DNA of 64,000 nt from a virus (IMGVR_UViG_3300040959_000769:64001-128000), one strand, 5' to 3'; shown: positions 25,203 to 40,926, numbered from the stretch's first letter. Notes: generated by a model from the sequence alone, not told the origin. Made by a program: numbers and translations.

Positions 25203-25208
25203 GCAGGG

Positions 25209-25260: not shown

Positions 25261-25293
25261 CGGTGTTGCACCAGTGTTCTGTAGGAGACGAAG

Positions 25294-25545: not shown

Positions 25546-25552
25546 GGTCAAA

Positions 25553-25765: not shown

Positions 25766-25780
25766 CGCTAGGAGCACAAA

Positions 25781-26220: not shown

Positions 26221-26555
26221 TGGCCATCAGGACCTCAACTCCAACATCAGGCAAGGTTTATAGCCCTCAGGCGGAACTTGACTGGACAAGCACACACTTG
26301 CTGTCATGCTTCTACATCTTGGGTCTCACAGAAGATGATATGGATACATACACCATTGACGACCTGGTTGATCGTTGCACTTGGATGTTTGAGCCACACA
26401 CCCTTGAGGCTTACCTGACTGTCTTAGGTAAAGAAAGATCATACGACCCCGGATTTTCTTTCGGCAGAAAACAGCGCAGTTGGATGGTTCTCCTAGTCAG
26501 AAGGTTCTGGCGTCGTCGCCATATTTCGCAGTACGAGGTGAACAGCGGTGTCTAG
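26220..26555 (+). CDS. Hypothetical protein
   Basis: 111 aa, translationally coupled ORF. Confidence 0.65.
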   Translation: MAIRTSTPTSGKVYSPQAELDWTSTHLLSCFYILGLTEDDMDTYTIDDLVDRCTWMFEPHTLEAYLTVLGKERSYDPGFSFGRKQRSWMVLLVRRFWRRRHISQYEVNSGV

Positions 26556-27321
26556 CAGCATTTTCCATAAAGGCGTCGTTGCTCGAAGCCTTTCCACTAA
26601 CCAAACTGGAACCACTTGGGAAGACGAGTTGAGCGTTGTGCGCGACTACTCCCGCCTCGCCGATGCGGCAATTACTGCCGCCAACGCTGACATGCGACAA
26701 GCTGCCGTTGGTCGAGACTGGTACTTCTGGAAATATTCCACGTGGCTAGGTGAACAAGACAACACATGGCTTGAATACGCTTGGCGCAACTACGTAGCAG
26801 TTAAATCTCTATATGGCGTTCTGAAGCCAAGAGACTTGGAAACAACTGAGAAAATTCTCATCTCTGGATCTTTCCCCATCCAGATGCACACGGCACACAT
26901 GCAGGCAGGGACAAAAGATTATTACTGGTTGAACTCACTTGAAACCAGAATCATGGAAGACACGCTGAACGAGAACGGAACCATCCCCAATCAACCAGAG
27001 TGCTCCTACAAAATCATTGACTTTGAAGACTTTGAGCAAGGCACAGTAACGGAATTTTTTGATTCAGCCCGCCTGCACACCCATGACTTCCTGACCCCGA
27101 ACCTAAATCTGGTTGACAACATGCTTGACTCAATCAGGGTAGGCGGAATCATGATGATTTACGATCTTGCTGAATTCGGCGCTTTGTACGAAGACGGCAT
27201 GCGCGCCCACGAAGAGCGAATGCACCGGATCAACCGCCGTATTGCCCAACGTGAAGACTACGAGGTGTATCACTTGGCACACGACGAGATCGGTACAGTT
27301 CTTGCCTACCGCATCGGCTAA
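26548..27321 (+). CDS. Putative class I SAM-dependent (O-)methyltransferase-fold protein
   Basis: C-terminal LVDNMLDSIRVGGIMMIYD ... INRRIAQREDYEVYHL...GTVLAYRI resembles O-methyltransferase C-termini. No clear motif I glycine loop. Confidence 0.45.
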   Translation: MSSSIFHKGVVARSLSTNQTGTTWEDELSVVRDYSRLADAAITAANADMRQAAVGRDWYFWKYSTWLGEQDNTWLEYAWRNYVAVKSLYGVLKPRDLETTEKILISGSFPIQMHTAHMQAGTKDYYWLNSLETRIMEDTLNENGTIPNQPECSYKIIDFEDFEQGTVTEFFDSARLHTHDFLTPNLNLVDNMLDSIRVGGIMMIYDLAEFGALYEDGMRAHEERMHRINRRIAQREDYEVYHLAHDEIGTVLAYRIG

Positions 27322-27330
27322 TATAAATAC

Positions 27331-28329
27331 ATGCCCGCAAGATTCGGACCTCCAACTCGAGACAAGTACGCCTATTACAGTCTTGACGAAAACGACTGCA
27401 AAACTGTCAACGAGATTGAGTACACAAATTACAAAGGTGGAGTAATCCACTTCCACAACGTTTTCAACGTTGACCGAGACGTAATTTTGCCATACATTGA
27501 CGAAATGGCATACGTGCCATCATGTGGTCTTGAAATCATCAAAGACGACGAAGGCAACATGCTCCACGGCGAAACTTTTGACGGCAAAATCGTGGACATG
27601 AAAGATCTACTCGCACTACCAATGCGGGTCGGCGGTATGGGGATGCCTGAACCAGTCAACCCAAGCACGCCACACGACGTCAGAAACTTTTTTGAGGGTG
27701 TTGAGGAAAGTTTGTATCACTGCCTAATCAGGTACTGTGATATTTACCCACTTATCGTCAACTCAATTTGGTGGCGAATGAGAGGACACTGTCTCAAGTA
27801 CATGCCAGGAGCGAATCTGGGTCTCCACAACGACAACGACACCAACACCTTCACCATTGATGGGCAGAGGTACTACAGCGAACGAGAGATCGCTATGTAC
27901 CAAGTCGTGAACGGTCTGGCTTATTTCAACGATGACTATGAAGGTGGAGAAATGCACTTCCCCTACTTAGACATCACGGTAAAACCAAAAACCGGAGACA
28001 TCATTCTTTTCCCTGCCAACTATGTTGGAACTCATGGAGTGGCGCAAGTTGGAGAAGGAGCACCTCGATACACCTACCTGACGCAGTTCGGTCATGGCGG
28101 AGAGCACAAATACGAAGTACTGGAGCCTCAGGAAAGCGACATGTGGCTAGCTCCGGTGTATGTGCCTTACCTGTACCAAGATCACGTCAAGTTCTCCCAT
28201 TCGGGCTACTCGCACCTGGACACGTCAAAAGACTCAGCGTTAGGTTTCCACGCCTCAACTATTGAGACGCAGCAACGCTCAAAAGAGGGCGCTCCAGTCG
28301 GAACTAAGATTCCGTACGAAGAGGAGTGA
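27331..28329 (+). CDS. Prolyl-4-hydroxylase-like Fe(II)/2OG oxygenase
   Basis: HND...YFNDDYEGGEMHF...GDIILFP...THGV...RY. Confidence 0.9.
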   Translation: MPARFGPPTRDKYAYYSLDENDCKTVNEIEYTNYKGGVIHFHNVFNVDRDVILPYIDEMAYVPSCGLEIIKDDEGNMLHGETFDGKIVDMKDLLALPMRVGGMGMPEPVNPSTPHDVRNFFEGVEESLYHCLIRYCDIYPLIVNSIWWRMRGHCLKYMPGANLGLHNDNDTNTFTIDGQRYYSEREIAMYQVVNGLAYFNDDYEGGEMHFPYLDITVKPKTGDIILFPANYVGTHGVAQVGEGAPRYTYLTQFGHGGEHKYEVLEPQESDMWLAPVYVPYLYQDHVKFSHSGYSHLDTSKDSALGFHASTIETQQRSKEGAPVGTKIPYEEE

Positions 28330-28975
28330 AAGGAATAGTTCCTATCAGAGTTCCATGACCAAAGAACTCCAGATAGGAAATACGTTCCCCTGACGTTACT
28401 GGCACAACTTCGTGAGTGCCTAAGAAACCGGCAGGATAAACAAATGCTGTTCCCGCTTCGGGGGCGAAATGCTTGTCGATGTATTTGAATCCAAGATCGC
28501 CACCGACGCAATCATCTTTCAGAATCAGAGATCCGGTCAGGACGCTGTAGATCGCTTTTTCGCTTTCCGAACCAGCACCAACTAAGTTGTCGTTGTGATA
28601 TCCCATGTATCCACCCGGTTTGTAGGTAGCGACATGAGGCACGGCTCTCCACCAAATGTTTTCTTTTGCGTCAGGGAAGAAATTGAAATATTTGGTGACA
28701 CATTCACCCATTGATTTTTCAAGAAGTTCTGCAAACTTCAGATCGTCGTCAGTGGTGTTCACTTTAAGTTGCAGAAGACGACCTGGGGAAGCATTGACCT
28801 GCTCCTCTGTGAAGATGTAGCCACCCCTATTCATGTACGTGCCATCATCCTGCAAGGTGTAGTCGCTTGGTTCTTGTTCGCGACGGCGTTCAAGCCATCC
28901 TTCAAAAAACGAAGCATCAATGTCTAGGACATTTCGATACTCAACGATCCCAAAGCCGTGATGGATTGCTTCCAT
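28304..28975 (-). CDS. Prolyl-4-hydroxylase-like Fe(II)/2OG oxygenase
   Basis: HND...GGDLGF...FVYP...THEVVPVTSGERIS. Confidence 0.9.
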   Translation of the reverse strand: MEAIHHGFGIVEYRNVLDIDASFFEGWLERRREQEPSDYTLQDDGTYMNRGGYIFTEEQVNASPGRLLQLKVNTTDDDLKFAELLEKSMGECVTKYFNFFPDAKENIWWRAVPHVATYKPGGYMGYHNDNLVGAGSESEKAIYSVLTGSLILKDDCVGGDLGFKYIDKHFAPEAGTAFVYPAGFLGTHEVVPVTSGERISYLEFFGHGTLIGTIPFTPLRTES

Positions 28976-29556
28976 TACTTCTCGTCAGGGAATTCGGTTC
29001 CACGCTCGCGGTCATTGCGGAGACGCTTCACCTCTTTGGCTGAGGTTTCATGAACCTCGGGTGTCCAGTACCCGTCAGTGAAAAGATCAGCAACCTCCTG
29101 AGCCCTATCTCCTGACAGGTACAGGGTGTGCTCATTTGTGTAGCCTTCACGACCGGGATATGGCCATCCATAAAGTCCGGCTTCAACATAATCAATGCCT
29201 GCTCCGGTGATGATGGATGCAATTTCCTGTTCGGACTCTTCGCCCCAGAGACCGTTGGCGTCAACGTAAAGTCCGTTGTAGCCACGAGATGCAACATAGT
29301 TCGCAATCTCAAGTGGAGCGCCACCAAAAGCAATGCAGAAAATGATGTCGCATTTTGCGAGCATCGCATCAAGGGTCACGAGATCAGTGAGATCAAACTC
29401 TGCTGCACGTTCGTGTGTTGCCTCAGAGCGATCAGCCGATGCCCAGACAACCCTGTGCCCGCTCTTACACAAAGCATAGGCAAGGGTGCCGCCCATCTTT
29501 CCTGGGTGGGCAATTCCAATTGTTTTATCCGACTGGGGGGAGTATTGAGTATCCAT
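28975..29556 (-). CDS. NAD(P)-binding Rossmann protein of the 6PGD/beta-hydroxyacid dehydrogenase type (N-terminal domain only)
   Basis: TIGIAHPGKMG...GHRVVWASADRSEAT...CDIIFC...YVDAN; start reassigned to MDTQY. Confidence 0.75.
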   Translation of the reverse strand: MDTQYSPQSDKTIGIAHPGKMGGTLAYALCKSGHRVVWASADRSEATHERAAEFDLTDLVTLDAMLAKCDIIFCIAFGGAPLEIANYVASRGYNGLYVDANGLWGEESEQEIASIITGAGIDYVEAGLYGWPYPGREGYTNEHTLYLSGDRAQEVADLFTDGYWTPEVHETSAKEVKRLRNDRERGTEFPDEK

Positions 29557-30349
29557 CTTCCATGTACACATTCGTTGAGATTCGGGCAAGGGTAGGGTGT
29601 TCTTGTGGGTCAACCACATTTTCGCAAACATCAGGGTTTGGCGTACCTTGACAATACCACCCCAAGTAAGAGTAGCGCCACCCGCCAGTCACGGGCTGCA
29701 CTTCATGCGCTGCAACATAATTAGACGGGAAGAAAAGCATGTCGCCTTTCTTTATGTCTTCGTGTTTGATATCTAGGTATTCGAAGTTATGAGCACCACC
29801 AGTGAAGTTCGTTCCGTCAAGCTCATCCTCCGACTTGACGTTGTCGTTCAGGTAAGCCACAACCGAAACGCTGTTGCGAGTGGCCAACTGATCACGAGGA
29901 TGAGGCTTGCCGTACTCGTAGTCAGTACTCACATCTGCGTGCATTCCTAAAAACCCGCCAACCGGATAAGCAACAATGTGGCTTTTGATCTTCCACCAAA
30001 TGCACTTACCGGCAATTGGGAACATTTCTAGATACGAGAGAAGACACGCATCTCGGCGCTCCTCAATGTAGTCAAGGACATCAATTACTTCAGAGCGGCT
30101 GTCCTGATGAACGAAACTCCCACGCCACGGCATCTCATCCAACGAATCTTTCTTAAAGAAATATCCGCTCCGATTGATGTAGCCGTCCTCACCAGTAATC
30201 GGGTCAACACCTGGCGTGTACATGGTCTCGCGCTCTGCCTGCAAAACGTCCTTGCAGTATTCACGCATCCAATCCCAGTCAAGGTTGAACACGTTCTCAA
30301 AGAGGACGACACCACCACCGAGGTGTGTACCAACAGGATTATCGCTCAT
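29525..30349 (-). CDS. Prolyl-4-hydroxylase-like Fe(II)/2OG oxygenase
   Basis: HAD...VAYLND...FTGG...GDMLFFP...AHEVQPVTGGWRYS; start reassigned to MSDNPV. Confidence 0.9.
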   Translation of the reverse strand: MSDNPVGTHLGGGVVLFENVFNLDWDWMREYCKDVLQAERETMYTPGVDPITGEDGYINRSGYFFKKDSLDEMPWRGSFVHQDSRSEVIDVLDYIEERRDACLLSYLEMFPIAGKCIWWKIKSHIVAYPVGGFLGMHADVSTDYEYGKPHPRDQLATRNSVSVVAYLNDNVKSEDELDGTNFTGGAHNFEYLDIKHEDIKKGDMLFFPSNYVAAHEVQPVTGGWRYSYLGWYCQGTPNPDVCENVVDPQEHPTLARISTNVYMEDGYSILPPVG

Positions 30350-31907
30350 ATTCATGTTCCCCCAGTTCAAGCATGTATCCAACATAGTCGTGGATGCGCT
30401 CAATGATCCGCTTCCGGTCATCGTTATCTCGAAGATGATTGAAACAACCGTAGATGGTGTCAATAGCAAACTGAACCAAGAAATCCTCGGGAGGATCGTG
30501 ACCCCTGAAGCCTTCGTATGTCATGAAAGACAAATTATGGAAGTCCCATGGGCGAAACTGCAAAGGCTGGTGTGGGAACCAATCGGGATAATGCCATGCA
30601 TGTCCGGCGTGCCGCATGTCTGGATGCCAACGCAGATACGCACGAACCTTCTCAATGACTGTCAACGTGTCGTCGTCATTTGGTGCTTGCTTCATGAAGT
30701 CTTGATGCGGAGGGAACCCGCCATGCATGTCCCCGTTGCGAGAAAACAGGAACGACTGACCCTCAAGATCAAACCCTTCCATGTGGGCTTTGCTGTAACG
30801 CATCAAGTTAGCGAAAATTCGATCCTCCGGATCCATCTTCACTGGGTAGACATGGAAGTCCTCGCCAAACGGTTCATTGTCAAAAAACTCTTTCAACTTG
30901 ACGCCACGCTCAGGAATGTTCCCATCCTTGGTGAAGATGAAAAGCGTTACCTTCTGAAATAGACACTCAAGTCCCTCAAGGGCATAGATTCCCTTTGTGA
31001 AGACAAGAGGAATGTGGTCAGGGTTCGGACCTTTTGACTTGTCCTTATCAACGCCAGGGTATGACTGTACGTCACCAAAGTTCTCGTTACCATCAACCTT
31101 GTACTCGGGATCGTAGAAAGGCTTCTCCTTCCCTACCTCTACCCGCTGGAAGACCCTATCCTCTCGCTCCCAGCCATTGTAAAAACCGTGCATTACGGCA
31201 CGATTGTCCCAGATGACTACGTCGCCTTCTTGCCACGTCCACTTGTAACGATTAGCTTCTGTTCGGCAATACTCCTCAACCCAGTCGTAGAGTTCTTCAA
31301 ACCATGGGGTGCTCCCCCCGTCAAGTTGGGTGCCTGGTCCGGTCCAGTAAAGAAGAGTTTCTCCAGTATCCGGATGTGTTCGCAAGGCGGGATGGCTGAC
31401 AACGTCACGTCCTGCGGCTCCAGTCTCCGCCACGAAACGAGCCGTCGGCAGGTGTTCCTTAATGTGCTCAGGACACTCTTCGTACAGATTTACAAGACTC
31501 ACCCAGAATGTGTGACCGAAATCTTTATCAACACGGTAGGTCGTCATATGGATGGAAGTAACCGCAGGAGGAGCTTCCAAGAACGGGTTATCTACATGCC
31601 AGTTCTCTTTCAGAAACTGTTCAGGATCCGTTTTATCTTCAACATTCTTGACCGTTGGGTGATTTACGCCCGCAAGAAGACCACCGTTGAAATCTTCATC
31701 AACTTCGCCTGTGTAGATAGCGTTGACCAGTTTCATGTGCTCCTGGTCGGTTGGGTTCATGCCGATGAAACCAACCATCTTGTTCTTGTTGAAAATCAAC
31801 TTGAAATACTCTGGGTCATCAAGAACTTGCCGGGCAGTGATGCCTCTCATCTTGAAACCGAGGTTGCCTAGTTTCAGTCCTAAGGCGATTCCGCCAAAAC
31901 CTTTCAT
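30339..31907 (-). CDS. TauD/TfdA-like dioxygenase with an unknown C-terminal domain
   Basis: NWHVD, GHTFWVS, HPALRTHPDTG, WQEGDVVIWDNRAVMHG. Confidence 0.88.
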   Translation of the reverse strand: MKGFGGIALGLKLGNLGFKMRGITARQVLDDPEYFKLIFNKNKMVGFIGMNPTDQEHMKLVNAIYTGEVDEDFNGGLLAGVNHPTVKNVEDKTDPEQFLKENWHVDNPFLEAPPAVTSIHMTTYRVDKDFGHTFWVSLVNLYEECPEHIKEHLPTARFVAETGAAGRDVVSHPALRTHPDTGETLLYWTGPGTQLDGGSTPWFEELYDWVEEYCRTEANRYKWTWQEGDVVIWDNRAVMHGFYNGWEREDRVFQRVEVGKEKPFYDPEYKVDGNENFGDVQSYPGVDKDKSKGPNPDHIPLVFTKGIYALEGLECLFQKVTLFIFTKDGNIPERGVKLKEFFDNEPFGEDFHVYPVKMDPEDRIFANLMRYSKAHMEGFDLEGQSFLFSRNGDMHGGFPPHQDFMKQAPNDDDTLTVIEKVRAYLRWHPDMRHAGHAWHYPDWFPHQPLQFRPWDFHNLSFMTYEGFRGHDPPEDFLVQFAIDTIYGCFNHLRDNDDRKRIIERIHDYVGYMLELGEHEYER

Positions 31908-32629
31908 GAAGGCTCCTTCAGTTGTGGGTGACCCTCAAATGCGGGGCCAATACGATTACCGTTTTCGTCTAGCCCAGTTCGGATGCCACCCATCCAAGTC
32001 CAAGGCTGTTCTTGCAACTTCTTCATCTTTGCATCACCGTACGACTGTCGAGCAGCAGACAAATCTGGCTTGTCCCAGTAGTTCTCAACTGTGAACTCAA
32101 CGCTTGGCATCAGAGAGTTGTCGTAAAACTGGAAAAACATAAAAGGTGAACCAGCAGGAAAAATAACTGGCTGACCAATTTTTGTGATCTTCCAGTTCAT
32201 GTTGAACTCGTCTGGCCACCAGTCAGATGGAATGTGCGCCGTTAAAGGAACAGCCCCATCAACAAAATAGTTAGGTGACCCGCTTATCCACGTGGACACT
32301 CCTGGAGGCGTTGAGAACGTCCACCCAACAGTGAACGACATAATCCCAACAATGCTGGGCATAACAATGTCACGTTCGTAAGTCTGACCATTTGTCTCAA
32401 ACGTCATCTTCTCGCCGGACAGGACACGAGGAACAGTCAGCCCCCCGTCCCATTGAATAACAACATCTTGTTGGAGAAGAACCTCCCAACCGTTGACGTT
32501 TGCTTCAGTCAGGGGAAGACACTTGTATGCATGCTTCTTGTAGGTGTCATCCATCCAGTCGCGTCGAACTGACGCTTGCTTTATCTCAGGTGGATTTTGA
32601 TGTGTTCTAGTGAGAGTTACATCCATCAC
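31904..32629 (-). CDS. DUF6065-like protein
   Basis: RDWMD...HAYKCLPL.EAN..GW...WDGG...PLT..I.SDW.P..F.MNWK matches my recollection of DUF6065 motifs. Confidence 0.75.
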   Translation of the reverse strand: MMDVTLTRTHQNPPEIKQASVRRDWMDDTYKKHAYKCLPLTEANVNGWEVLLQQDVVIQWDGGLTVPRVLSGEKMTFETNGQTYERDIVMPSIVGIMSFTVGWTFSTPPGVSTWISGSPNYFVDGAVPLTAHIPSDWWPDEFNMNWKITKIGQPVIFPAGSPFMFFQFYDNSLMPSVEFTVENYWDKPDLSAARQSYGDAKMKKLQEQPWTWMGGIRTGLDENGNRIGPAFEGHPQLKEPS

Positions 32630-33327
32630 TGAATAGCCATCGTCTGACCGCTGGCAACAGGAATTCCCATTGTCGTATCTTGCTGCGCCGAGTACCCACC
32701 TCCGCCGTGGCTCTGGTGGTTACGGTCGTTGTAGTCATACATGGTGACGGCAGAATACTTGATTCCACTCTTTACAGGCTGAGAAGCATGAGCGTAAATG
32801 AAATCACTTGGATGGACAATGACATCACCTGCTTCGGGGACAAACTGAAGGTTTTTGTACGGCATGATGTACTCGCCGCCTTCGTAGTCGTCATTCAAAT
32901 ACCCAATAGCAGACACGGCGCAAGAATAAGAAAACCCAGAGTCAGGATGAACTGAGAAATGCTGCCCCTCGCCATAGCGAACGAAGTTGGTGGCTTCTTC
33001 ATAGTCAAGTTGCAAGTTGTACATTGACGAGTAGTGCTGCACGCACTGGCGTACACCAGAAATAACTTCCTCGTACACCCGTCCAAGATCTGCGAACTCT
33101 TCAGGAACAGGGATGTCTGCTTGACGCAACTTGAAGTCAACGCAATCTCTGTAATCCTTCATCACCTCGTAGTCTCCAACTGTCGCCTGCTTCCATGAGA
33201 AGTATTCGTGGGTGCTCTCAGCGAGACCGGTTTCAAGTCGAGCGATGAAGTTTGAGTCAGGTGCCCAAACGTCTTTGTACAGCATGATGCCGTCGGTCGG
33301 GTTGCCCAAGTATCCGCCAATTCTCAT
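32626..33327 (-). CDS. Prolyl-4-hydroxylase-like Fe(II)/2OG oxygenase
   Basis: VRYGEGQHFSVHPD...YLNDDYEGGE...GDVIVHP...AHASQPVKSGIKYS. Confidence 0.92.
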   Translation of the reverse strand: MRIGGYLGNPTDGIMLYKDVWAPDSNFIARLETGLAESTHEYFSWKQATVGDYEVMKDYRDCVDFKLRQADIPVPEEFADLGRVYEEVISGVRQCVQHYSSMYNLQLDYEEATNFVRYGEGQHFSVHPDSGFSYSCAVSAIGYLNDDYEGGEYIMPYKNLQFVPEAGDVIVHPSDFIYAHASQPVKSGIKYSAVTMYDYNDRNHQSHGGGGYSAQQDTTMGIPVASGQTMAIQ

Positions 33328-33330
33328 TAT

Positions 33331-33963
33331 TTACCTCAGTTCAGTGATTGTGTAGAAAGAAGGGGTAGTCCATCTTTCTCCACGGGTAATTTGTTTTACA
33401 CCATGAAGATAGTGGACATCACCTGGATGTGCTACCGCTAAGCCTGGTTTTATCGGAATTTCAATATCGAACTCAGGGTAATAAAACTCGCCACCATCAA
33501 AATCTTCGTTCCAGTAAATGATTGAGTTCAGGTCATACAGAGGGAAAGGATTTGGCTTTCCGTCATTCAACTGTTTATCCGCGTGTGGTTGCTGCTCATT
33601 GCCTGGAAGCCATCTGATAAGTACTGGCGGGCGCTTGTATAGAGCAACGTTGAATTTGTCCTCCAACACTTTTTGCATCTTGTCAATATATTTATCAATC
33701 AGATTAAATATATCTGGGGAGATGCGTTTGAGGATTTCGCCACTACACATTCGATCCCACCAATAGGAGGCGTCGTAAATACACGTGCCATCTTCATCAA
33801 ATTCGTCACCCATAGGATTTTCCCACTCTTCAATAGTCGGGAAAAACTTTTGCAGGGTTTTCAGATCATCTAGATCTACGAAGTTTTCAATGACTGTGAT
33901 GTTCTCTGCTGTTGTTCCGAAGTGACCTGGTTCAACTAGCGATTTTTCTTCAACTTGTTCCAT
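33331..33963 (-). CDS. Prolyl-4-hydroxylase-like Fe(II)/2OG oxygenase
   Basis: IRWLPGNEQQPHAD...YWNEDFDGGEF...HPG...LHGVKQITRGERWT. Confidence 0.92.
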   Translation of the reverse strand: MEQVEEKSLVEPGHFGTTAENITVIENFVDLDDLKTLQKFFPTIEEWENPMGDEFDEDGTCIYDASYWWDRMCSGEILKRISPDIFNLIDKYIDKMQKVLEDKFNVALYKRPPVLIRWLPGNEQQPHADKQLNDGKPNPFPLYDLNSIIYWNEDFDGGEFYYPEFDIEIPIKPGLAVAHPGDVHYLHGVKQITRGERWTTPSFYTITELR

Positions 33964-33965
33964 CA

Positions 33966-34030
33966 GGTAAGCGAACTTACCATAAACATAGATCCCTCGT
34001 CCACCACGTTGGCAGTCAAGGGATCTATGT
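33966..34030 (-). promoter_or_regulatory. Two tandem RNA hairpins in the leader of the hydroxylase operon
   Basis: 12-bp perfect stem ACATAGATCCCT/AGGGATCTATGT (33986-34030) and 6-bp stem GGTAAG-TTCG-CTTACC (33966-33981). Confidence 0.65.
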
Positions 34031-34047
34031 CACTCCTCTTGTTTTTC

Positions 34048-34635
34048 CTACTTAAAGCTCGGCGGGAAGAAAGGCGGGAAGTGTGGTGGGAAGTGAGGCG
34101 GGAACCACGGTGGGAAGTGTGGTGGGAAGAACGGTGGGAAATGTGGTGGGAAGTGTGGAGGGAAGAACGGCGGGAAATGTGGCGGGAAGTGAGGTGGGAA
34201 GTGTGGAGGGAAGTGAGGTGGGAAAAACGGTGGGAAGTGCGGAGGGAAGTGAGGAGGGAAAAATGGTGGAAAATGCGGAGGGAAATGGGGAGGGAAAAAC
34301 GGCGGGAAGTGGGGTGGAAAGTGCGGAGGGAAGAATGGCGGAAAGTGTGGCGGAAAGTGAGGCGGGAAAAACGGTCCGATTGCGCGAACAGAAATAGTTG
34401 TTCCCAAAGGAATTTCAGTGAAAGTGGTTGTGAGGTTGTATTCCTGACCGTCAACAATGATGTCATGCGCTTTACCGACATCACCTAAAACACTCGTGTT
34501 TAGCGTATCGACAGCTTCAGAAACGGCGGAAAACCCGAGATTCTGCAACGACACCACGAAATTGCCAGCGTCTGTGAGATCGGTATACGTGAACGTACCT
34601 AAAGGTAGTCCGCTTCCGCCTTTGTTACCTGCCAT
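34048..34635 (-). CDS. Pro/Phe/His repeat protein: 87-aa N-terminal domain plus (PPxF)26
   Basis: ORF starts 7 nt after the tail-fibre stop; repeat codons are synonymously diversified. Confidence 0.9.
   Translation of the reverse strand: MAGNKGGSGLPLGTFTYTDLTDAGNFVVSLQNLGFSAVSEAVDTLNTSVLGDVGKAHDIIVDGQEYNLTTTFTEIPLGTTISVRAIGPFFPPHFPPHFPPFFPPHFPPHFPPFFPPHFPPHFPPFFPPHFPPHFPPFFPPHFPPHFPPHFPPHFPPFFPPHFPPHFPPFFPPHFPPWFPPHFPPHFPPFFPPSFK
34054..34374 (-). repeat. 12-nt coding tandem repeat (PPxF) with a 36-nt superperiod
   Basis: PFF followed by 17 PPHF, 7 PPFF, 1 PPWF and 1 PPSF. Confidence 0.97.
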
Positions 34636-34641
34636 CAGTCA

Positions 34642-37600
34642 TCACGCCTTTGCATCACCAGTTACGAGCCATGTGTCAGTGCCTCGCTTATGCAACGTTA
34701 TCATAGACCATTGTTCGCGGGTTTTAAGACCAACCGCAGCGTTAATTGTTACCCCTGAGAGTGCGTTAACTGTTGCGGTGCCTGTGCCTGTCTGCACAAT
34801 ATTGATAACTGTTCCGATAGGGAATGCGACACTGGCGTTTGTTGGAACATTAATGGTTCCCGTCGATGAAAATTCCAAGGTGTGACCTTCGTGGGCGGCA
34901 TTTAGAGTCATGTTTGAACTGTAAGTGTCATAATCGTGGAGAACACTTGTACCAGCAGGCAATGTAACCGTGCCGGTAAATGTCGGCGAAGCCAACGGAG
35001 CTTTCAACGCCAACGAGTTCGTGACCGTCGTCGAGAAGTTAGCGTCATCACCCAGAGCCGCAGCCAACTCATTCAACGTATCCAAAGTTGCCGGAGCAGA
35101 ATCAACCAAAGCGGACAATTCCTGCTGAACAAACGCAGTCGTCGCCAACTGTGTGGTGTTCGTTGTTGTAGCCGCCGTAGGTGCGGTAGGTGTGCCAGTC
35201 AAAGCAGGGCTAGCCAACGGGTCATAGTTAACCCAGTTCGCTCCGTCATACCTGATTGCTTCACCGCTGGAAAGAGAAGTAAATGAAACGTCGCCAATAT
35301 CTTCAAGAGCGGAAATAATCGGAACGTTCGCGTTCACCCAGTTAGTTCCGTTGTACTTCAAGAACTCGCCATCAGCCTCAGATGTCAGCGTTACATTGGT
35401 GATGTTTGCCAGAGTGTGCGCCGTGTTGACGTAGTTCGTTCCGTTGTAGAGAAGAATGTCGCCGGACGTTTCACTTGATGTTGAAACACCACCAGAGTTC
35501 TGGATTGTAAGCGGATAGGGAACCCAATTAGTTCCATCAAAGTAGGCAACGTCACCCTCTGAAGGAGCGAGAGTTGTCATATCAACATCGCTCAATCCAC
35601 CAATACTGTGATTAGACACGTCCGAAACCGTGCCTGTCACATCACCGGTTACATCACCGGTCACATTGCCAGTCAAAGATGCCGTGATGGTTCCCGCAGA
35701 GAAGTTGCCCGTTCCATCACGAGCAACAATCGTCCCTGCGGTATTCAGGTTCGTGGCATTAGAAGTGACCGTGACCGCAGCGCCCTCACCTGTTCCAACG
35801 ACAGTCAGACCAGTTCCAGAAACACCGACAGATGCGACATAGTCGCCCGTGGTATGCGTTCCCAGATCAACACTGTCGTTAGCCATTGCCGTCGTCAGAG
35901 TGATGTTCCCGGAACCATCAAACGAAACACCAGCAGCAGTCACATCGCCACTCAAAGCGATGGTGCGGGCATTTTGCAGAGTCGTAGCCGTTGTTGCATT
36001 TCCTGACAAAGCAGCAGTGACCGTCACGAACGTTGGTGAATCCGTCGTGGCAAGACCCTGAATAAGATCAGAGGTTTCAACGCTGGTGACACGACCGTAC
36101 GAATCAGTCGTAACACTTGACACGAATGTTGAGGTAGCGGAACCGGATGTGGAACCAACTGAAACAGTAGCCAAGTCAATATCGTCGGCATTGACGACAA
36201 TTCGAGAAACATCGGCTGTTCCAACATTCAGTGTGTTGCCTGTCTGGGCAAGACCCGTACCGGCAGTGAATGCTTGGGTTCCAGTGAACTGGGTGAACGA
36301 AAGTGCATCCGACCCAATTGAATGCGGCGACGATGTTGACGTAACAACGAAGCCCTGTCGGACATTCGTGCTACCGGCAAGAACGAAAACGGCTTCACCA
36401 GGGTTAACGTCGGCGTCGCTACCGTCAAAATCATCTGCCCTTGTAAGAATCCAGTACGCAGTGCCTGATGCCCCTTGATTCGTTACGACATAGATGCCGT
36501 TATGAGAACTTGTTGCTTGATCTTTAACAAGAACACGGTCCCCAGTGTTTGCGTTAGCTCCGTCAATGACCAGACGGACCTGGCTTGTTGCGGTAAGCGT
36601 CGCCCCCACACCACTTGATCCGTTGTCGTAAGATGGCGTGTCGGGAAGGGTTGTTGCAGTAGCCAAACGAACCGCTTCATGCCAGTCAATGCCAGCAGCA
36701 ATGTTGTCCACGTAAGATTTAGTTACCGCATGACCTGCTTGAGTTGGTGCCGTGCCAAGGCTGACCGTGTTGAACGTAACGTCATCTGACGTTCCCACCG
36801 CCTGACCAATAGCAACGGATGGGGTATTGCCTTCGCCAGTTCCGCCAGTAACTGTGACACCTGTACCCCCAGAAACACTGACGGTGTAATTACCTGTCGT
36901 GTCGGTTCCAAGAGCCACACTGTCGGCTTGAACTGTTGCGCTGATGTTGATATCGCCAGTTCCGTCAAATGAGGCAGAACCAGCAACGTCGCCAGAAATC
37001 TGAATGGTGCGAGCAGTCGCAAGAGCAGTAGCGGTGTCAGCGTTCCCAGTGACATTGCCGGTTAGGTTTCCTGTGACGTTACCGGTAAGAGCAGCCGTGA
37101 CGGTGTTGAAAGTGACGTCATCTGTGGTGCCAACAGCCTGCCCGATTGCGATAGTGGCAGTTTGACCTTCTCCCGTAGGATTGGTGATTGTTACACCGGT
37201 GCTTTCAGCCAACTCGGCAACATAGTTACCTGTCGTGTCAGTTCCAAGTGCGACCGAATCTGCTTGGATAGTCGTTGAAATTGAGACATCACCAGAACCG
37301 TTGAAACTGACAGAACCAGCCACGTCGCCAGTAAGCGAAATTGTCCGAGGAGTCTGCAATGTTGAAGCAGTAGTAGCATTACCACTTAAAGCTCCGTAGA
37401 AGGTGCTTGCTTGAACATCTGCTAATTCAAACGATGCGTCGCTAGTGTTAACGTTCCCTGAGAGTTCTGGGTCGTAAGCATTGAAGAACTTCCATCGAGC
37501 GTCATCGGTGTCGCGGAAAAGACCAGTGTGGTTGTAGCCGCTGTCGTTGTAGTTGCCAGCGAAACCAATATCAACGTTTACCGGTGAAGCGGTACCCGAC

Positions 37601-40600
37601 CATGTGTCCCCACTTGTGTGACCAGTCGCGGCAATAAATGTGATTGAAATGCCGTTATCAAGCGTTACACCGTCAGTGTCAATATCAACGCCAGTGGCTT
37701 CTGTTGTTGAGAAGTTGTCCTTTGACCATTCAAAGGTGTCCACCCCGCCGGTTCCAGCACCAACCCCGTCAATCCTGACGTAATAGGTTGTGCTACCAGT
37801 TCCAGAGTAGTGACCGGTCAACGTTCCGTCATTAAGACCCGTACCCGAGAATGACGTTGTGGCGATGGTGTCGCCGCCATTCAGATAGATCCACGAGTCA
37901 TCAACACTCAGGTTGTTGACAGAAACTTCTGACTGTGTTCCAAGGATTGTCAGGTTGCCAGCAACAGTAAGATCTCCGCTGATACGCGCATCGTTACGAA
38001 CACGAATATCATCAAATACCTCTGAAACAACTTTGACCCGGAAACAACCTGGATCCTGAGCGAGAAGCACCTCAGCAATCCCAATTGCATAGTTCGGGTA
38101 GGTCGGAACAGCCGTGGTTAAAGCACCTGGTGTTGTTGCTGATAGGTGAAGCCTGTCCCCGACGGAGAAACCGCTGAGGTCAACACCGAGCAAAACACCA
38201 GATTCAATAATGAATCCGTAAGCGCCATCAGCGATAGTGCTTTTGGCGACACCACCAACGTTGACTTTATCTCCATCGCTAGCATCAGCCAGAGCGATGG
38301 TTGGGATAGCCGCCGTTTCACCAGTGAAATAGACAGCCGAACCTGCCGGAATACTTACACCTGAATCGTTATGAACGTACAACGCCTGCTCTTGACCGAG
38401 AGCAATATCAACACCAGTCGTGCTCGTAAATGCACGTAGCGCTTTGTTAGCCGAGTCGTACCAGATTCGACCTTCTTCATATGTTGGCGTTGAATCAGGA
38501 GTGTAGGTTGAAGCCGCAACGTCGTAATACGACGCATAAACCCGAACGGCTTCAATATCGTTCGGCGTGTCGTTTGCGCGTCCTGCACCGAGGATAAGAA
38601 TTTCGCCAGTAGATGCATCCTTACGGATGACTCGACCGATGGCTTGAACTTTTGACCCGATAGCCGTCGGACGGGTACGTGTCAGTCCGCCACCTTCATC
38701 AACATACAGAACATCGTTGACGTCGTACGACGACGTATTCATGTGTTTGATAACGCCGAGGATGACGGCGTGACCTTCTGCGTTTGCTGTCAGTTCAGCG
38801 GTCGTGATTCCCAGTGCGGGCATTGTTGAAGATGTTGCCGCATCCGAAGGCGACACTTCTGTTTTGCCACTCGCACCAACCGAACCTGTCGCATAAACAG
38901 GCGTACCTTTAGCAATGGTGGAACCCGATGTGTTCTTAACATGAACATATACAGGTCCAGCAAGTTCACCGTGAATATGGCCAGCGTCAAGAAGACCGTT
39001 TACCGTCACATCTTCAAAAGTTACGCTTGCCGTACTGTCAAGAGTGATGGTTGGAGTTGCGCCTTCTCCAGAGTTATTGGTGAGCGTGACCCCGTTGCCT
39101 GCAACCAGGTTCTGAACATAGTCGCCGGTCGTATCAGTACCAAGAGTGACAGAATCAGGCTGAATTGTCGCCGCAATATTTATATTTGCTGTGCCATCAA
39201 ATGATGCAGAACCAACCACATCACCAGAAACTTGGATCGTTCGAGCCGTTTCCAACGCTGTTGCCGTATCAGCATTACCAACCAAATCGCCTGTAACAGT
39301 GTTGAAAGTTACGTCATCAGTTGTTCCAACCGACTGGCCGATTTCAATAGTGGGAGTTGCTTTTTCTCCTGAATTATTGCTGAGCGTGATACCAGTGCCA
39401 GCAACGAGATTCTGCACAAACGACCCAACAGTGTGATCACCAAGAGTGATCGCAGCATTGATCCACTCCGCTCCGTTGTAGCGAAGAAAGTCGTTAGATG
39501 CTGGAGTTGCGACCGTGGTATCTGTCAGACCAGCGACAGTTGGTGCAATGTTGCGCCACTCTCCCGCCGTTGAATCCCACGCAATAATGTCATCGTTAGA
39601 AACAGAAACAATGTTTACGCCAGGAATGTCATCAATTTCTGTCGGCAGCGGGTAGTACGTGACCCCGTCGTTGGTGAACTCCCAAACATCTTGCGTTTCA
39701 TCCCAACGAACAGAAACGTTGTTAGAGGTTCCACGTGTGACCTCAATGCCAGCATTCAGCGATGGGGCGCCAGTAACACCGCTGTTAAGGTTGATGATGT
39801 TGTCTTCAACGTACAGGTTTGCGGTGTTCAGAGTTGTTGTTGTTCCGTTGACCGTGAGGTTACCGCCGACAGTTAGATCAGCAGTTGTCGCAACAGAGTT
39901 GAAAGTCACGTTTGACGTTGTTGAAACGTCTTGACCAATAGCGATAGAAGGCGTGTTTCCTTCTCCGGAACCACCAGTAACAGTTACACCTGTTCCGCCG
40001 CTAACACCTTCGGTGTAATCCCCAGTTGTGTCCGTCCCAAGAGCAACACTGTCAGGTTGCACCGTGGTCGTGATCGTGACATCGGCAGATCCATCAAAAG
40101 AAACCGAACCAGCAACGTCTCCGTCAACAGTGAAAACTCGAGGTGTCTGCAAGGCGGAAGCCGTTCCAGCGTTGCCAGACACATCACCCGTAACATTGCC
40201 TGTCAGAGAAGCAGTGACAGAATTGAAAGTGACATCATCGCCAGTCCCAACCGACTGACCAATAGCAATCGTCGGGGTTGAACCCTCACCAGAATTGTCT
40301 GCCAGGTTTACACCGGTACCAGCAACCAAATTCTGGACATAGTCACCAGTTGTGTCAGCACCCAAAGCCACCGAGTCAGGCTGAACTGTCGCCGCGATAT
40401 TGACATCCGTGGACCCGTCAAAACTTACAGATCCCGCCACATCTCCAGAGAGTTGAATGATTCGAGCGGTTTCAAGGATGCTTGCCGAATCAGCATTACC
40501 GACAATGTCTGCCGTCACAGTGTTGAACGTGACATCTGACGTGGTTTCAACTTCCTGACCGATTGAAACTGACGCTGCTGCGCCTTCACCGGTTCCACCC

Positions 40601-40926
40601 AAAATGGTGACTCCGGTACCTGCGGTAACGCTCTCAACGTAGTCACCAACCGAGTCGGTGCCAAGATTTACAGCGTCATTGATCCACGCAACACCATTCC
40701 AACGCAAGAAATCGCCATCAGCAGCAGATGTGATGGTTACATCAGAAATTTCGTCAAGTGTTGCCGTTGTGTAGTAATAGTCAAGCGAAGTCCATGCAGT
40801 AAGACCATCACCAAGTTTGAGTTTCCCAGTGTCCGTCTCGTACCCAAGTTCGCCTTGAGCAAGAGTTGGATCTTCACTTGTCCAATTCGCCGCTGTATCT
40901 CGGCGTAGCTGAATTCTTGTTGCCAT
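34642..40926 (-). CDS. Long tail fibre / virion appendage protein (2094 aa) with internal repeats
   Basis: N-terminal RIQLRRDTAANW...GELGYETDTGKLKLGDG; six TAR.I..SGDV.GS.SFDG and eight DSV.LG.DTTG.Y modules; C-terminal IGT.I.I.Q.G.G...W.L.GD domain. Confidence 0.85.
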   Translation of the reverse strand: MATRIQLRRDTAANWTSEDPTLAQGELGYETDTGKLKLGDGLTAWTSLDYYYTTATLDEISDVTITSAADGDFLRWNGVAWINDAVNLGTDSVGDYVESVTAGTGVTILGGTGEGAAASVSIGQEVETTSDVTFNTVTADIVGNADSASILETARIIQLSGDVAGSVSFDGSTDVNIAATVQPDSVALGADTTGDYVQNLVAGTGVNLADNSGEGSTPTIAIGQSVGTGDDVTFNSVTASLTGNVTGDVSGNAGTASALQTPRVFTVDGDVAGSVSFDGSADVTITTTVQPDSVALGTDTTGDYTEGVSGGTGVTVTGGSGEGNTPSIAIGQDVSTTSNVTFNSVATTADLTVGGNLTVNGTTTTLNTANLYVEDNIINLNSGVTGAPSLNAGIEVTRGTSNNVSVRWDETQDVWEFTNDGVTYYPLPTEIDDIPGVNIVSVSNDDIIAWDSTAGEWRNIAPTVAGLTDTTVATPASNDFLRYNGAEWINAAITLGDHTVGSFVQNLVAGTGITLSNNSGEKATPTIEIGQSVGTTDDVTFNTVTGDLVGNADTATALETARTIQVSGDVVGSASFDGTANINIAATIQPDSVTLGTDTTGDYVQNLVAGNGVTLTNNSGEGATPTITLDSTASVTFEDVTVNGLLDAGHIHGELAGPVYVHVKNTSGSTIAKGTPVYATGSVGASGKTEVSPSDAATSSTMPALGITTAELTANAEGHAVILGVIKHMNTSSYDVNDVLYVDEGGGLTRTRPTAIGSKVQAIGRVIRKDASTGEILILGAGRANDTPNDIEAVRVYASYYDVAASTYTPDSTPTYEEGRIWYDSANKALRAFTSTTGVDIALGQEQALYVHNDSGVSIPAGSAVYFTGETAAIPTIALADASDGDKVNVGGVAKSTIADGAYGFIIESGVLLGVDLSGFSVGDRLHLSATTPGALTTAVPTYPNYAIGIAEVLLAQDPGCFRVKVVSEVFDDIRVRNDARISGDLTVAGNLTILGTQSEVSVNNLSVDDSWIYLNGGDTIATTSFSGTGLNDGTLTGHYSGTGSTTYYVRIDGVGAGTGGVDTFEWSKDNFSTTEATGVDIDTDGVTLDNGISITFIAATGHTSGDTWSGTASPVNVDIGFAGNYNDSGYNHTGLFRDTDDARWKFFNAYDPELSGNVNTSDASFELADVQASTFYGALSGNATTASTLQTPRTISLTGDVAGSVSFNGSGDVSISTTIQADSVALGTDTTGNYVAELAESTGVTITNPTGEGQTATIAIGQAVGTTDDVTFNTVTAALTGNVTGNLTGNVTGNADTATALATARTIQISGDVAGSASFDGTGDINISATVQADSVALGTDTTGNYTVSVSGGTGVTVTGGTGEGNTPSVAIGQAVGTSDDVTFNTVSLGTAPTQAGHAVTKSYVDNIAAGIDWHEAVRLATATTLPDTPSYDNGSSGVGATLTATSQVRLVIDGANANTGDRVLVKDQATSSHNGIYVVTNQGASGTAYWILTRADDFDGSDADVNPGEAVFVLAGSTNVRQGFVVTSTSSPHSIGSDALSFTQFTGTQAFTAGTGLAQTGNTLNVGTADVSRIVVNADDIDLATVSVGSTSGSATSTFVSSVTTDSYGRVTSVETSDLIQGLATTDSPTFVTVTAALSGNATTATTLQNARTIALSGDVTAAGVSFDGSGNITLTTAMANDSVDLGTHTTGDYVASVGVSGTGLTVVGTGEGAAVTVTSNATNLNTAGTIVARDGTGNFSAGTITASLTGNVTGDVTGDVTGTVSDVSNHSIGGLSDVDMTTLAPSEGDVAYFDGTNWVPYPLTIQNSGGVSTSSETSGDILLYNGTNYVNTAHTLANITNVTLTSEADGEFLKYNGTNWVNANVPIISALEDIGDVSFTSLSSGEAIRYDGANWVNYDPLASPALTGTPTAPTAATTTNTTQLATTAFVQQELSALVDSAPATLDTLNELAAALGDDANFSTTVTNSLALKAPLASPTFTGTVTLPAGTSVLHDYDTYSSNMTLNAAHEGHTLEFSSTGTINVPTNASVAFPIGTVINIVQTGTGTATVNALSGVTINAAVGLKTREQWSMITLHKRGTDTWLVTGDAKA

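What the first reader, a model, noticed from the sequence alone, without database searches (positions are those of the whole stretch)
34054..34374. The PPxF repeat is protein-selected, and its 12-residue superperiod fits a polyproline-II helix
Seen: PFF followed by 17 PPHF, 7 PPFF, 1 PPWF and 1 PPSF, mostly as PPFF-PPHF-PPHF triplets. Aromatic X positions fall at units 0,3,6,9,12, then 17,20, then 22,25. All four Pro codons and both Phe and His codons are mixed, so this is not recent slippage. Known: PPII has about 3 residues per turn. Inference: 12 residues make 4 turns, so X=F units align on one face and His on the other two. This would give a rod of roughly 30 nm with a hydrophobic stripe for oligomerisation and His faces for metal or pH-sensitive binding.
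Basis: partly seen in the sequence, partly recalled or inferred. Interest (0 to 1): 0.75.

Follow-up and report, generated by a model that had tools for sequence, protein, structure and literature searches.

The report
Phage PASTA-headed protein with aromatic-proline tail
An uncultured estuary phage encodes, right after its giant tail-fibre gene, a small protein with a cell-wall-binding-type (PASTA) head and a 107-residue Pro-Pro-(His/Phe)-Phe tail; selection clearly keeps the tail, but its neat 12-residue rhythm is specific to this lineage and is not a conserved design rule.

Summary
Window 34054-34374 (minus strand) encodes PFF plus 17 PPHF, 7 PPFF, 1 PPWF and 1 PPSF inside a 195-aa ORF (34048-34635).

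Protein-level selection is strongly supported. All variation among units lies at third codon positions or in the X codon, and 12 of 12 listed variants in the repeat, read in other runs, are synonymous.

The 12-residue superperiod is real in this gene (lag-3 match 0.83, p 0.0014). Two register shifts break it, so no single Phe-only face runs the length of an ideal PPII helix. Many homologues lack the period: they have runs of 8 PPFF or 9 PPYF, 20-residue periods, or 3- and 5-residue units. His is freely replaced by Tyr or Phe, so metal or pH binding is not a family property.

The protein has a PASTA-fold head (AF2 plus fold search) on an aromatic-proline tail ending in PPSFK. Its gene always follows a fibre gene and usually precedes prolyl-hydroxylase-like oxygenases, which makes it a candidate substrate. 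Some relatives add a Hint self-cleaving cap.

No Pfam, PHROG or literature description was found. This scan has already noted the same module on other phage DNA.

The parts
34048..34635 (-). Complete ORF, 195 aa: PASTA-fold head + aromatic-proline tail + stop
   Evidence: ORF list and translation. Orthologues at 43-75% N-domain identity occupy the same slot in IMG/VR phage contigs. The start ATG lies 6 nt after the stop of the fibre gene.
34372..34605 (-). N-terminal head, residues about 11-88, PASTA fold
   Evidence: AF2 pLDDT is above 90 over residues 11-90. In VIA-align against 48,161 PDB chains the top 15 hits are all PASTA domains of PknB, PrkC, StkP and PBPs (Z 5.5-7.7, rmsd 1.8-4.8 A, mostly 2.1-2.9, over 57-71 residues); the next hit has Z 3.8. 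Foldseek's top hits are also PknB PASTA but weak (E 0.1). The head aligns with relatives that carry Pfam PASTA. The window protein itself has no Pfam hit.
34054..34374 (-). PFF + 26 x PPxF tract (residues 88-194); 53 of 107 residues are Pro and there is no Gly
   Evidence: AF2 shows no helix or strand and pLDDT about 50-55. 12 of 12 listed variants in the repeat are synonymous.
34048..34062 (-). Conserved C-terminal cap ...PP(S/G/R)FK + stop (the last four residues PSFK and the stop codon)
   Evidence: The same ending PP[SGRA]FK occurs in window-type, PASTA-type and many other slot proteins.
33985..34031 (-). Strong RNA hairpin (15+6 bp stem) between the repeat gene and the first oxygenase gene; no clean U-tract
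   Evidence: MFE of the 101-nt stretch folded -36.9 kcal/mol, z -5.1 against 200 shuffles, none as stable. The simple terminator scan did not call it. Orthologous loci hold a roughly 95-codon two-helix ORF at this place instead.
34642..40926 (-). Upstream partner gene: 2094-aa fibre protein with Mtd_N N-terminus
   Evidence: Pfam Mtd_N E 7.8e-17. A fibre-like gene (Pfam Mtd_N confirmed in the two tested) directly precedes every PPxF gene examined, including two separate fibre-to-PPxF pairs in several phages.
33331..33963 (-). 2OGa, P4H-like Fe(II)/2OG oxygenase (candidate modifier)
   Evidence: Pfam PF13640 E 8.6e-4, below the cut-off. PDB hits: P3H1 2e-8, B. anthracis P4H 5e-6, PiuC. H127, D129, H187 and R197 are invariant in 18 orthologues. 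37 of 37 orthologues with upstream sequence have a PPxF array within 1.5 kb.
32626..33327 (-). 2OGb, P4H-like Fe(II)/2OG oxygenase
   Evidence: Pfam PF13640 E 3.9e-9. Its profile hits B. anthracis P4H 7e-6, LH3 1e-4, PBCV-1 P4H 0.009. H127, D129, H180 and K190 are invariant.
31904..32629 (-). DUF6065 protein travelling with the two oxygenases
   Evidence: Pfam PF19541 E 2e-43. Syntenic in all orthologous loci and in the FN3-type phages.

Best explanation
The ORF encodes a fibre-associated protein, probably part of the virion. A single PASTA-fold head (a fold that in bacteria sits on the outside of the membrane and binds cell-wall material) carries a 107-residue aromatic-proline tail.

Half the tail's residues are Pro and every Phe precedes a Pro, so it cannot form alpha or beta structure. 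It most likely behaves as an extended, polyproline-II-like, greasy semi-rigid stalk or anchor, at most about 33 nm long.

Tail length and X order evolve quickly by in-frame 12-nt and 36-nt gains and losses. Selection keeps the P-P-aromatic-F chemistry, not a particular order. The FHH triplet rhythm in this phage is best read as the frozen trace of old 36-nt block duplications under purifying selection, not as a requirement for a three-faced helix.

The gene is co-transcribed with the fibre gene. The tail is the most plausible protein substrate of the prolyl-hydroxylase-like oxygenases encoded just downstream.

Shown: frame, selection, PASTA fold, synteny, and non-conservation of the period. 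Inferred: PPII conformation, virion location, hydroxylation.
For: Selection and frame.

PASTA head.

No regular secondary structure in the tail.

Partnership with the fibre gene. There is a 6-nt gap to the fibre gene. The order fibre then PPxF gene holds in all orthologous loci and in distant FN3-type phages, where two separate fibre-to-PPxF pairs occur per genome.

Heads typical of virion surface proteins. The heads swapped onto the same tail are PASTA, FN3, He_PIG and long Ig-like arrays, and some tails carry Cys-rich ends.

The tail is evolutionarily fluid. Unit number ranges from 13 to 35 among window-type orthologues. P0001 and L007 have the same head but differ by exactly three units. 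Synonymous lag-3 identity is 0.88 in L007 and 0.78 in L008, indicating recent 36-nt duplications, but only 0.49 in the window, where the sites are old and scrambled.

The period is not conserved.

Link to the hydroxylases. 85 of 131 PPxF ORFs lie under 1 kb from a 2OG-like ORF. 37 of 37 2OGa orthologues have an upstream PPxF array. The enzymes' only PDB relatives are peptidyl prolyl or lysyl hydroxylases and PKHD (PiuC-type) hydroxylases, and their HxD...H triads are intact.

Precedents. PBCV-1 P4H hydroxylates viral Pro-rich repeats (PMC3634087). The gamma-zein repeat forms a PPII helix that self-aggregates (PMC6150340).
Against: There is no direct evidence that the protein is in virions, and no proteome exists for any relative.

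AF2 confidence in the tail is low, so PPII rests on stereochemical inference. From my own knowledge, aromatic-Pro bonds have a raised cis propensity, which would kink a PPII rod.

The linkage to the hydroxylases could be plain conserved gene order within one phage clade. In phages with two PPxF genes, only one abuts the oxygenases. A strong hairpin separates the repeat gene from the oxygenases in this window. Tandem dioxygenase arrays also exist in cyanophages, where they were attributed to secondary metabolism (PMC2938197).

Three-unit periods are the commonest order in the wider family (26 of 37 long pure arrays). Weak selection for a 12-residue period therefore cannot be excluded, though many of those 26 are close relatives.

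RNA evidence is a single 216-nt contig in one metatranscriptome.
Confidence: 0.55

Rival explanations
1. The 12-residue superperiod is selected because the tail is a three-faced PPII rod. Its Phe stripe drives oligomerisation and its His faces bind metal or sense pH.
For: Lag-3 order is significant here and in 6 of 8 complete window-type orthologues. It persists although synonymous sites show no lag-3 signal. Three-unit periods dominate long pure arrays (26 of 37). In the first 12 units one ideal PPII face is Phe and Pro only. The gamma-zein repeat shows that Pro-rich His-containing repeats can form self-assembling PPII helices.
Against: Two register shifts move the stripe to a new face, and the whole-array 120-degree moment equals that of shuffles (p 0.25). 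The 'His faces' carry equal Phe. Orthologues with the same head have runs of 5-8 PPFF or 6 PPHF. Twenty-residue periods and mixed 3-, 4- and 5-residue units cannot keep a 3-fold register. Whole subfamilies replace His with Tyr or Phe. Recent 36-nt duplications explain the period mechanically (P0001 against L007).
Confidence: 0.12
2. A non-structural tail-fibre assembly helper. The idea comes from the small genes that follow fibre genes in lambda, P2, Mu and T-even phages. It would be needed to fold or trim the 2094-aa fibre and would not be kept in the virion.
For: The gene sits immediately downstream of a fibre gene in every locus, including two independent pairs per genome. The protein is small.
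Against: It has no Pfam or PHROG match, so it matched no family in either library, fibre-helper families included. The heads are PASTA, FN3 or Ig-like adhesion-type domains. Relatives of 800-1000 aa carry the same tail after many Ig-like domains, and some have Cys-rich ends or Hint caps. These are architectures of exposed structural proteins, not chaperones.
Confidence: 0.15
3. A disordered, sticky low-complexity tail with no defined conformation. It would serve as a hydrophobic adhesive to the host envelope or as a condensate-forming scaffold, with neither periodicity nor hydroxylation mattering.
For: AF2 pLDDT is about 50 throughout the tail. Unit number, unit length and X order vary widely with only composition conserved.
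Against: The P-P-x-F spacing is kept strictly at codon positions 1 and 2 in all 26 units. The start ([GTS]P[FY]FPP) and the end (PP[SGR]FK) are conserved. This points to more than composition being under constraint.
Confidence: 0.15

Closest known systems
Chlorovirus PBCV-1 prolyl 4-hydroxylase and the virus's own Pro-rich repeats such as (Pro-Ala-Pro-Lys)n (PMC3634087)
   Same: A virus encodes both P4H-like enzymes and proteins with short tandem Pro-rich repeats. The 2OGb profile weakly hits the PBCV-1 P4H structure 5c5t (E 0.009).
   Different: The host is bacterial, not algal. The repeat is aromatic (PPxF, no charge) rather than PAPK. There is a bank of several paralogous oxygenases plus DUF6065. 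No chemistry has been shown.
Gamma-zein N-terminal repeat (VHLPPP)8, a self-assembling PPII helix (PMC6150340, citing Kogan et al. 2001)
   Same: Both are Pro-rich tandem repeats with His and hydrophobic residues. The zein repeat was shown experimentally to adopt PPII and to self-aggregate.
   Different: The zein unit has 6 residues, exactly two PPII turns, so the faces are strictly kept. Here the unit has 4 residues, the constant Phe visits all faces, and the 12-residue order is broken within the gene and not conserved among homologues.
PASTA domains of PknB, PrkC, StkP kinases and class B PBPs
   Same: The fold of residues 11-88 matches (Z up to 7.7, top 15 hits). Relatives reach the Pfam PASTA model.
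   Different: It is a single PASTA unit on a phage protein, with no kinase or transpeptidase. The window sequence itself is below Pfam detection. Ligand binding is untested.
Fibre gene plus small downstream partner cassettes (lambda Stf/Tfa, P2 H/G, Mu S/U, T-even gp37/gp38); recalled from my own knowledge
   Same: The gene order, fibre then small partner, is tightly coupled and repeated twice per genome in relatives.
   Different: There is no sequence relationship. The architecture is adhesin-like rather than chaperone-like.
Tandem dioxygenase arrays of cyanophages, e.g. Syn9 with 10 tandem dioxygenases (Iyer et al. 2010, PMC2938197)
   Same: A phage carries a bank of several classical Fe(II)/2OG dioxygenases in tandem. 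The same paper predicted that tail-collar and collagen-like proteins are hydroxylase substrates in bacterial operons.
   Different: That paper proposed secondary-metabolite synthesis for the phage arrays and named no Pro-rich phage substrate. Here a Pro-rich protein gene heads the array.
Hedgehog/intein (Hint) and bacterial intein-like (BIL) autoprocessing domains
   Same: Relatives of this protein carry a Hint fold directly after the repeat (Z 17.5 to BIL2, 17.3 to the C. thermocellum BIL, 16.8 to Hedgehog HhC), with an N-terminal Cys and a C-terminal HN.
   Different: The window protein has no such cap and ends in PPSFK. Cleavage or ligation has not been shown for any member.

Membership tests
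PASTA domain (PF03793) | Compact alpha+beta fold of about 65-70 residues (one helix packed on a three-stranded sheet) | tested here: met
   AF2 residues 11-90 have pLDDT above 90, with elements E12-17, H23-32 and E38-47 onward. The top 15 of 48,161 PDB representatives are all PASTA domains (Z 5.5-7.7), and the next hit has Z 3.8.
PASTA domain (PF03793) | Match to the Pfam model at or above the gathering score | tested here: not met
   The window protein has no Pfam hit at E <= 0.01. Aligned relatives do have hits: precomputed PF03793 on P0006, P0013 and P0015, and L072:2148-5213 at 23.9 bits against a cut-off of 23.2.
PASTA domain (PF03793) | Binding of peptidoglycan fragments or beta-lactams | not testable with these tools
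   This needs a binding assay.
Amphipathic PPII repeat (gamma-zein VHLPPP type) | High, regularly spaced Pro content incompatible with alpha or beta structure | tested here: met
   53 of 107 tail residues are Pro, at fixed positions 1 and 2 of every unit. DSSP on the AF2 model shows no helix or strand.
Amphipathic PPII repeat (gamma-zein VHLPPP type) | Sequence period that is a multiple of 3 residues and is kept along the array, so that residue types stay on fixed faces | tested here: not met
   The 12-residue order holds for units 0-12 only. Two register shifts follow. The whole-array 120-degree aromatic moment is 0.028 against 0.021 +/- 0.011 for shuffles (p 0.25). Homologues show irregular orders, 20-residue periods and mixed unit lengths.
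Amphipathic PPII repeat (gamma-zein VHLPPP type) | PPII signature by CD or NMR, and self-assembly | not testable with these tools
Substrate of a virus-encoded prolyl hydroxylase (PBCV-1 type) | Pro-rich tandem repeat protein and P4H-like enzyme encoded by the same virus, with conserved linkage | tested here: met
   2OGa starts 85 nt downstream. Synteny holds in all orthologous loci, in 37 of 37 2OGa orthologues and in distant FN3-type phages.
Substrate of a virus-encoded prolyl hydroxylase (PBCV-1 type) | Neighbouring enzyme belongs to the peptidyl-prolyl hydroxylase branch and keeps the HxD...H iron triad and the 2OG-binding basic residue | tested here: met
   PDB hits: P3H1 2e-8, B. anthracis P4H 5e-6, LH3, PiuC, PBCV-1 P4H 0.009. 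Invariant residues are H127/D129/H187/R197 in 2OGa and H127/D129/H180/K190 in 2OGb. Substrate specificity is not shown.
Substrate of a virus-encoded prolyl hydroxylase (PBCV-1 type) | Hydroxyproline present in the protein | not testable with these tools
   This needs mass spectrometry.
Collagen-like triple helix | Gly at every third residue | tested here: not met
   There is no Gly in residues 88-195.
Tail-fibre assembly helpers (Tfa, gp38-type) | Sequence or profile similarity to a known helper family | tested here: not met
   There is no Pfam or PHROG family at E <= 0.01 / 0.001. Only the gene position resembles them.

The most novel reading that the evidence does not exclude
The aromatic-proline tail would be the first natural protein substrate identified for the unexplained banks of Fe(II)/2OG oxygenases in tailed phages. 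The phage would hydroxylate its own fibre-associated protein, giving an extensin-like hydroxyproline-rich stalk on a bacterial virus. In relatives, a Hint domain would then cleave at, or ligate, the tail's C-terminus.
Probability: 0.3. Interest if true: 0.8.

Novelty: new variant of a known kind. Interest (0 to 1): 0.5.

Why it matters
Banks of prolyl-hydroxylase-like oxygenases in phage genomes have had no known substrate since they were first described (PMC2938197). A selection-maintained Pro-rich tail encoded at the head of such a bank gives a concrete protein to test.

The tail also appears to be a portable stalk or anchor for phage surface proteins. It is attached to PASTA, FN3 and Ig-like heads, and it is absent from Pfam and PHROGs. 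It is therefore relevant to how uncultured aquatic phages, probably of Gram-positive or actinobacterial hosts, reach or hold the cell wall.

For the specific claim examined, the useful result is negative. The elegant 12-residue rhythm should not be used to infer a three-faced rod with metal-binding faces.

Tried and rejected
1. The window protein has no hit in Pfam or PHROGs.

2. tblastn of the window protein, P0010 and P0015, and megablast of 12 kb of the window, against 50,697 GenBank phage records gave no match. The low-complexity filter masks the tail, so only the heads were really tested.

3. ESM Atlas gave no usable hit.

Contexts were taken from IMG/VR through the search for related loci instead.

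5. The genome-contig scan found 330 pattern matches but only 2 tblastn-confirmed loci. Both are unrelated Pro-rich repeats (PTFQ/PTFR and SYFP) on short MAG contigs, so no cellular homologue and no host were found this way.

6. The simple terminator scan did not call the post-gene hairpin. Folding did, but the hairpin lacks a U-tract, so calling it a terminator is not justified.

7. Expression. One metatranscriptome run holds a single 216-nt contig over 33960-34175. DNA carry-over cannot be excluded, and the absence of cover elsewhere means nothing.

8. A collagen-type triple helix is rejected because the tail has no Gly.

9. The alternative frames and the opposite strand (ORFs 33955-34488 +, 33963-34484 -, 34083-34397 +) are open only because of the repeat. 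They are inconsistent with the third-position pattern of variation.

10. Literature searches for PPFF/phage repeat, PASTA/phage tail, and phage/prolyl hydroxylase/tail fibre found no description of this module.

11. In the second AF2 job (P0120) the PASTA head and the repeat came out at low confidence, so only its Hint domain is usable.

Full report
OBSERVATION. On the minus strand, window 34048-34635 is a 195-codon ORF. Residues 88-194 (34374-34054) read PFF followed by 26 tetrapeptides: 17 PPHF, 7 PPFF, 1 PPWF and 1 PPSF, then Lys and stop. Tandem Repeats Finder finds periods of 12 nt and 36 nt. The X string is FHHFHHFHHFHHFHHHHFHHFHWHHFS. F/non-F agreement is 0.83 at lag 3, against 0.42 and 0.44 at lags 1 and 2, and 0.14% of shuffles reach that value.

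IS IT CODING AND SELECTED? Yes.
- Across the 26 DNA units, positions 1, 2, 4, 5, 10 and 11 (first and second codon positions of Pro, Pro and Phe) never vary. The third positions are thoroughly mixed, and the only other variation is the X codon.
- I laid contigs of other estuary metagenomes on the region. All 12 differences listed inside the repeat (all in run X14, four of them also in the RNA-library contig of X24) are synonymous third-position changes, and no indel was seen. The adjacent fibre gene shows 8 synonymous changes out of 9.
- The frame continues from a conserved N-domain.
- The other open frames over the repeat are by-products of the repeat.
- One 216-nt contig from an estuary metatranscriptome run covers the 3' end of the gene, the intergenic hairpin and the start of the next gene. 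This is weak evidence of transcription.

ANATOMY.
- AF2, using an alignment of 20 relatives, folds residues 11-90 at pLDDT above 90. It leaves the tail without helix or strand at pLDDT about 50-55.
- An all-against-all structural search puts 15 PASTA domains (PknB, PrkC, StkP, PBP1, PBP2x, PonA2) at the top, with Z 5.5-7.7 and rmsd mostly 2.1-2.9 A over 57-71 residues. The next hit has Z 3.8. Foldseek agrees weakly.
- The window sequence is below Pfam detection. It aligns with proteins in the same slot that do carry Pfam PASTA.
- The tail always begins [G/T/S]-P-[F/Y]-F-P-P and commonly ends PP[S/G/R]FK.

CONTEXT.
- The window is part of a 137-kb IMG/VR phage record that recurs in estuary metagenomes.
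- The phage has an HK97-type portal fused to a Mu-F domain, an S78 prohead protease and a T4-type terminase. Its closest cultured relatives by portal are Gordonia and Brevibacterium phages, at about 44% identity.
- The repeat gene starts 6 nt after the stop of a 2094-aa fibre gene with an Mtd_N N-terminus.
- After the repeat gene comes an 84-nt spacer holding a 21-bp hairpin (-36.9 kcal/mol for the 101-nt stretch folded, z -5.1, no U-tract).
- Next come two P4H-like Fe(II)/2OG oxygenases, a DUF6065 protein and further oxygenase paralogues.
- This order is kept in all orthologous IMG/VR loci.
- In more distant phages, whose oxygenases are only 35-46% identical, the same slot holds FN3-headed proteins with the same kind of tail. 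Several of those genomes have two separate fibre-to-tail-protein pairs, and only the second abuts the oxygenases.
- Position directly after a fibre gene is therefore the most constant association. Proximity to the oxygenase bank is the second: 85 of 131 tail ORFs lie under 1 kb from a 2OG-like ORF, and 37 of 37 2OGa orthologues with enough upstream sequence have a tail array within 1.5 kb.

THE SUPERPERIOD.
(a) Geometry. I assigned residues to the three faces of an ideal PPII helix. In the first 12 units one face is Phe and Pro only. The other two faces are P:F:H 2:1:1, because the constant Phe rotates through all faces. The HHHH and W irregularities shift the register twice, so the Phe-only face differs in each of three segments. 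The whole-array 120-degree aromatic moment is indistinguishable from shuffled X order (p 0.25). A fully extended tail would measure 33 nm.

(b) Homologues. Among complete window-type orthologues, 6 of 8 keep significant lag-3 order. L006, L012 and the partial L008 and L010 do not; one example is FFFFFFFFHHFHHHFHHFFHHHHHHFR. Among PASTA-type proteins in the same slot, 1 of 6 keeps it. Other slot proteins include YYYYYYYYYFG and YYYFFFFFFFHHHHHHFFYS. Among 37 long pure four-residue arrays from the protein database, 26 have a best period of 3 units and 9 a best period of 5 units (20 residues, out of register with a 3-fold helix). Many of the 26 are close relatives. Other relatives mix PFF, PYF and VPPYF units or use P[S/T]F triplets.

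(c) History. In the window, synonymous sites show no lag-3 excess (0.49). L007 (0.88) and L008 (0.78) do show one. P0001 and L007 share a head but differ by exactly three units. Arrays therefore grow by 36-nt blocks, synonymous sites then decay, and X is conserved like any selected residue. His to Phe needs two base changes.

(d) X chemistry. In the family, X is F 815, Y 381 and H 255, with few other residues. The requirement is an aromatic ring, not His. The period is real here, but it is not a conserved design.

MECHANISM. My best reading (confidence about 0.55) is a fibre-associated surface protein.
- A PASTA head sits on an extended, PPII-like aromatic-proline stalk or anchor whose length evolves freely.
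- The PPII assignment is an inference from stereochemistry. Pro fixes phi, and residues that precede Pro are confined to the beta/PPII region. It is also consistent with the AF2 model showing no helix or strand.
- The stalk is the likeliest substrate of the adjacent hydroxylases. Profile searches of 2OGa and 2OGb against all PDB sequences return only peptidyl prolyl or lysyl hydroxylases and PKHD-type hydroxylases: P3H1 2e-8, B. anthracis P4H 5e-6, LH3, PiuC, PBCV-1 P4H 0.009. Their HxD...H triads are invariant.
- Precedents are the PBCV-1 P4H acting on viral Pro-rich repeats and the self-assembling PPII helix of gamma-zein.

Against the substrate idea:
- The linkage may be mere clade synteny.
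- A hairpin separates the genes in this window.
- Phage dioxygenase arrays have been attributed to metabolite synthesis.

RELATIVES WITH CAPS. Several PASTA-headed and FN3-headed relatives continue after the tail with a domain that starts with Cys and ends in HN. Pfam gives a weak Intein_splicing hit. AF2 of P0120 gives pLDDT about 90 for this domain. The fold search returns BIL2 (Z 17.5), a bacterial intein-like domain (Z 17.3, 28% identity) and the Hedgehog autoprocessing domain (Z 16.8). Other relatives end in Cys-rich tails. The window protein is uncapped.

HOW COMMON, HOW NEW. A profile of the family finds 286 clusters at E <= 1e-3 (48 at <= 1e-10) among 1.84 billion 50%-identity representatives, in proteins of 82 to 2662 residues. 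No Pfam or PHROG family, GenBank phage record or paper describing it was found. No bona fide cellular homologue was found. Earlier notes of this scan describe the same module on other phage DNA, with similar readings. I treated them as leads. I re-derived the PASTA head, the fibre and oxygenase synteny and the Hint cap independently here, and I checked the paper that one of them named.

VERDICT. The PPII superperiod interpretation is only partly supported, and its functional extrapolations (continuous hydrophobic stripe, His faces for metal or pH) are not supported by the comparative data.

Noticed in passing
P0120, P0083, P0086, P0096, P0100, P0103; L104:1868-3166; L072:9995-11470; L045:10001-11479; L036:1182-2726: Relatives carry a C-terminal Hint (bacterial intein-like / Hedgehog-type) domain directly after the Pro/Phe repeat. 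It starts with Cys and ends with HN(K). AF2 pLDDT is about 90, with fold hits BIL2 Z 17.5, 2lwy Z 17.3 and Hedgehog HhC Z 16.8. This suggests self-cleavage or ligation at the tail's C-terminus in those phages.
   Followed up: partly
L003:1245-1575, L004:8541-8857, L006:1885-2178, L007:8481-8784, L013:4350-4671 (against window 33964-34047): Orthologous loci hold a conserved ORF of about 95 codons with two hydrophobic helices between the repeat gene and the first oxygenase. The window lacks it and has only an 84-nt spacer with a 21-bp hairpin.
   Followed up: partly
L100 (8762-9439 and 15574-16647), L040, L045, L072, L028: Several related phages have two separate fibre-to-tail-protein gene pairs. 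Some tails end proteins of 792-1021 aa that consist of many Ig-like domains, and some use P[S/T]F triplets instead of PPxF.
   Followed up: partly
window 21484-33963: There is a bank of paralogous Fe(II)/2OG oxygenase-like genes (28304-28975, 29525-30469, 32626-33327, 33331-33963 and others) with DUF6065 (31904-32629). The bank is syntenic across all related loci. It resembles the tandem dioxygenase arrays reported for cyanophage Syn9.
   Followed up: partly
window 8851-11067: The portal protein is fused to a Mu-F-like domain. The nearest cultured relatives are Gordonia and Brevibacterium phages (about 44% identity over half the protein). Together with the PASTA head, this hints at an actinobacterial or other Gram-positive host, but the host was not established.
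   Followed up: no
window 34642-40926: The last ~320 residues of the 2094-aa fibre are far better conserved among orthologues (about 80% in L004-L006, 87% over the 163 residues held in L003; 58-66% in L007 and L013-L015) than the rest of the fibre. That is the part encoded right next to the repeat gene.
   Followed up: no
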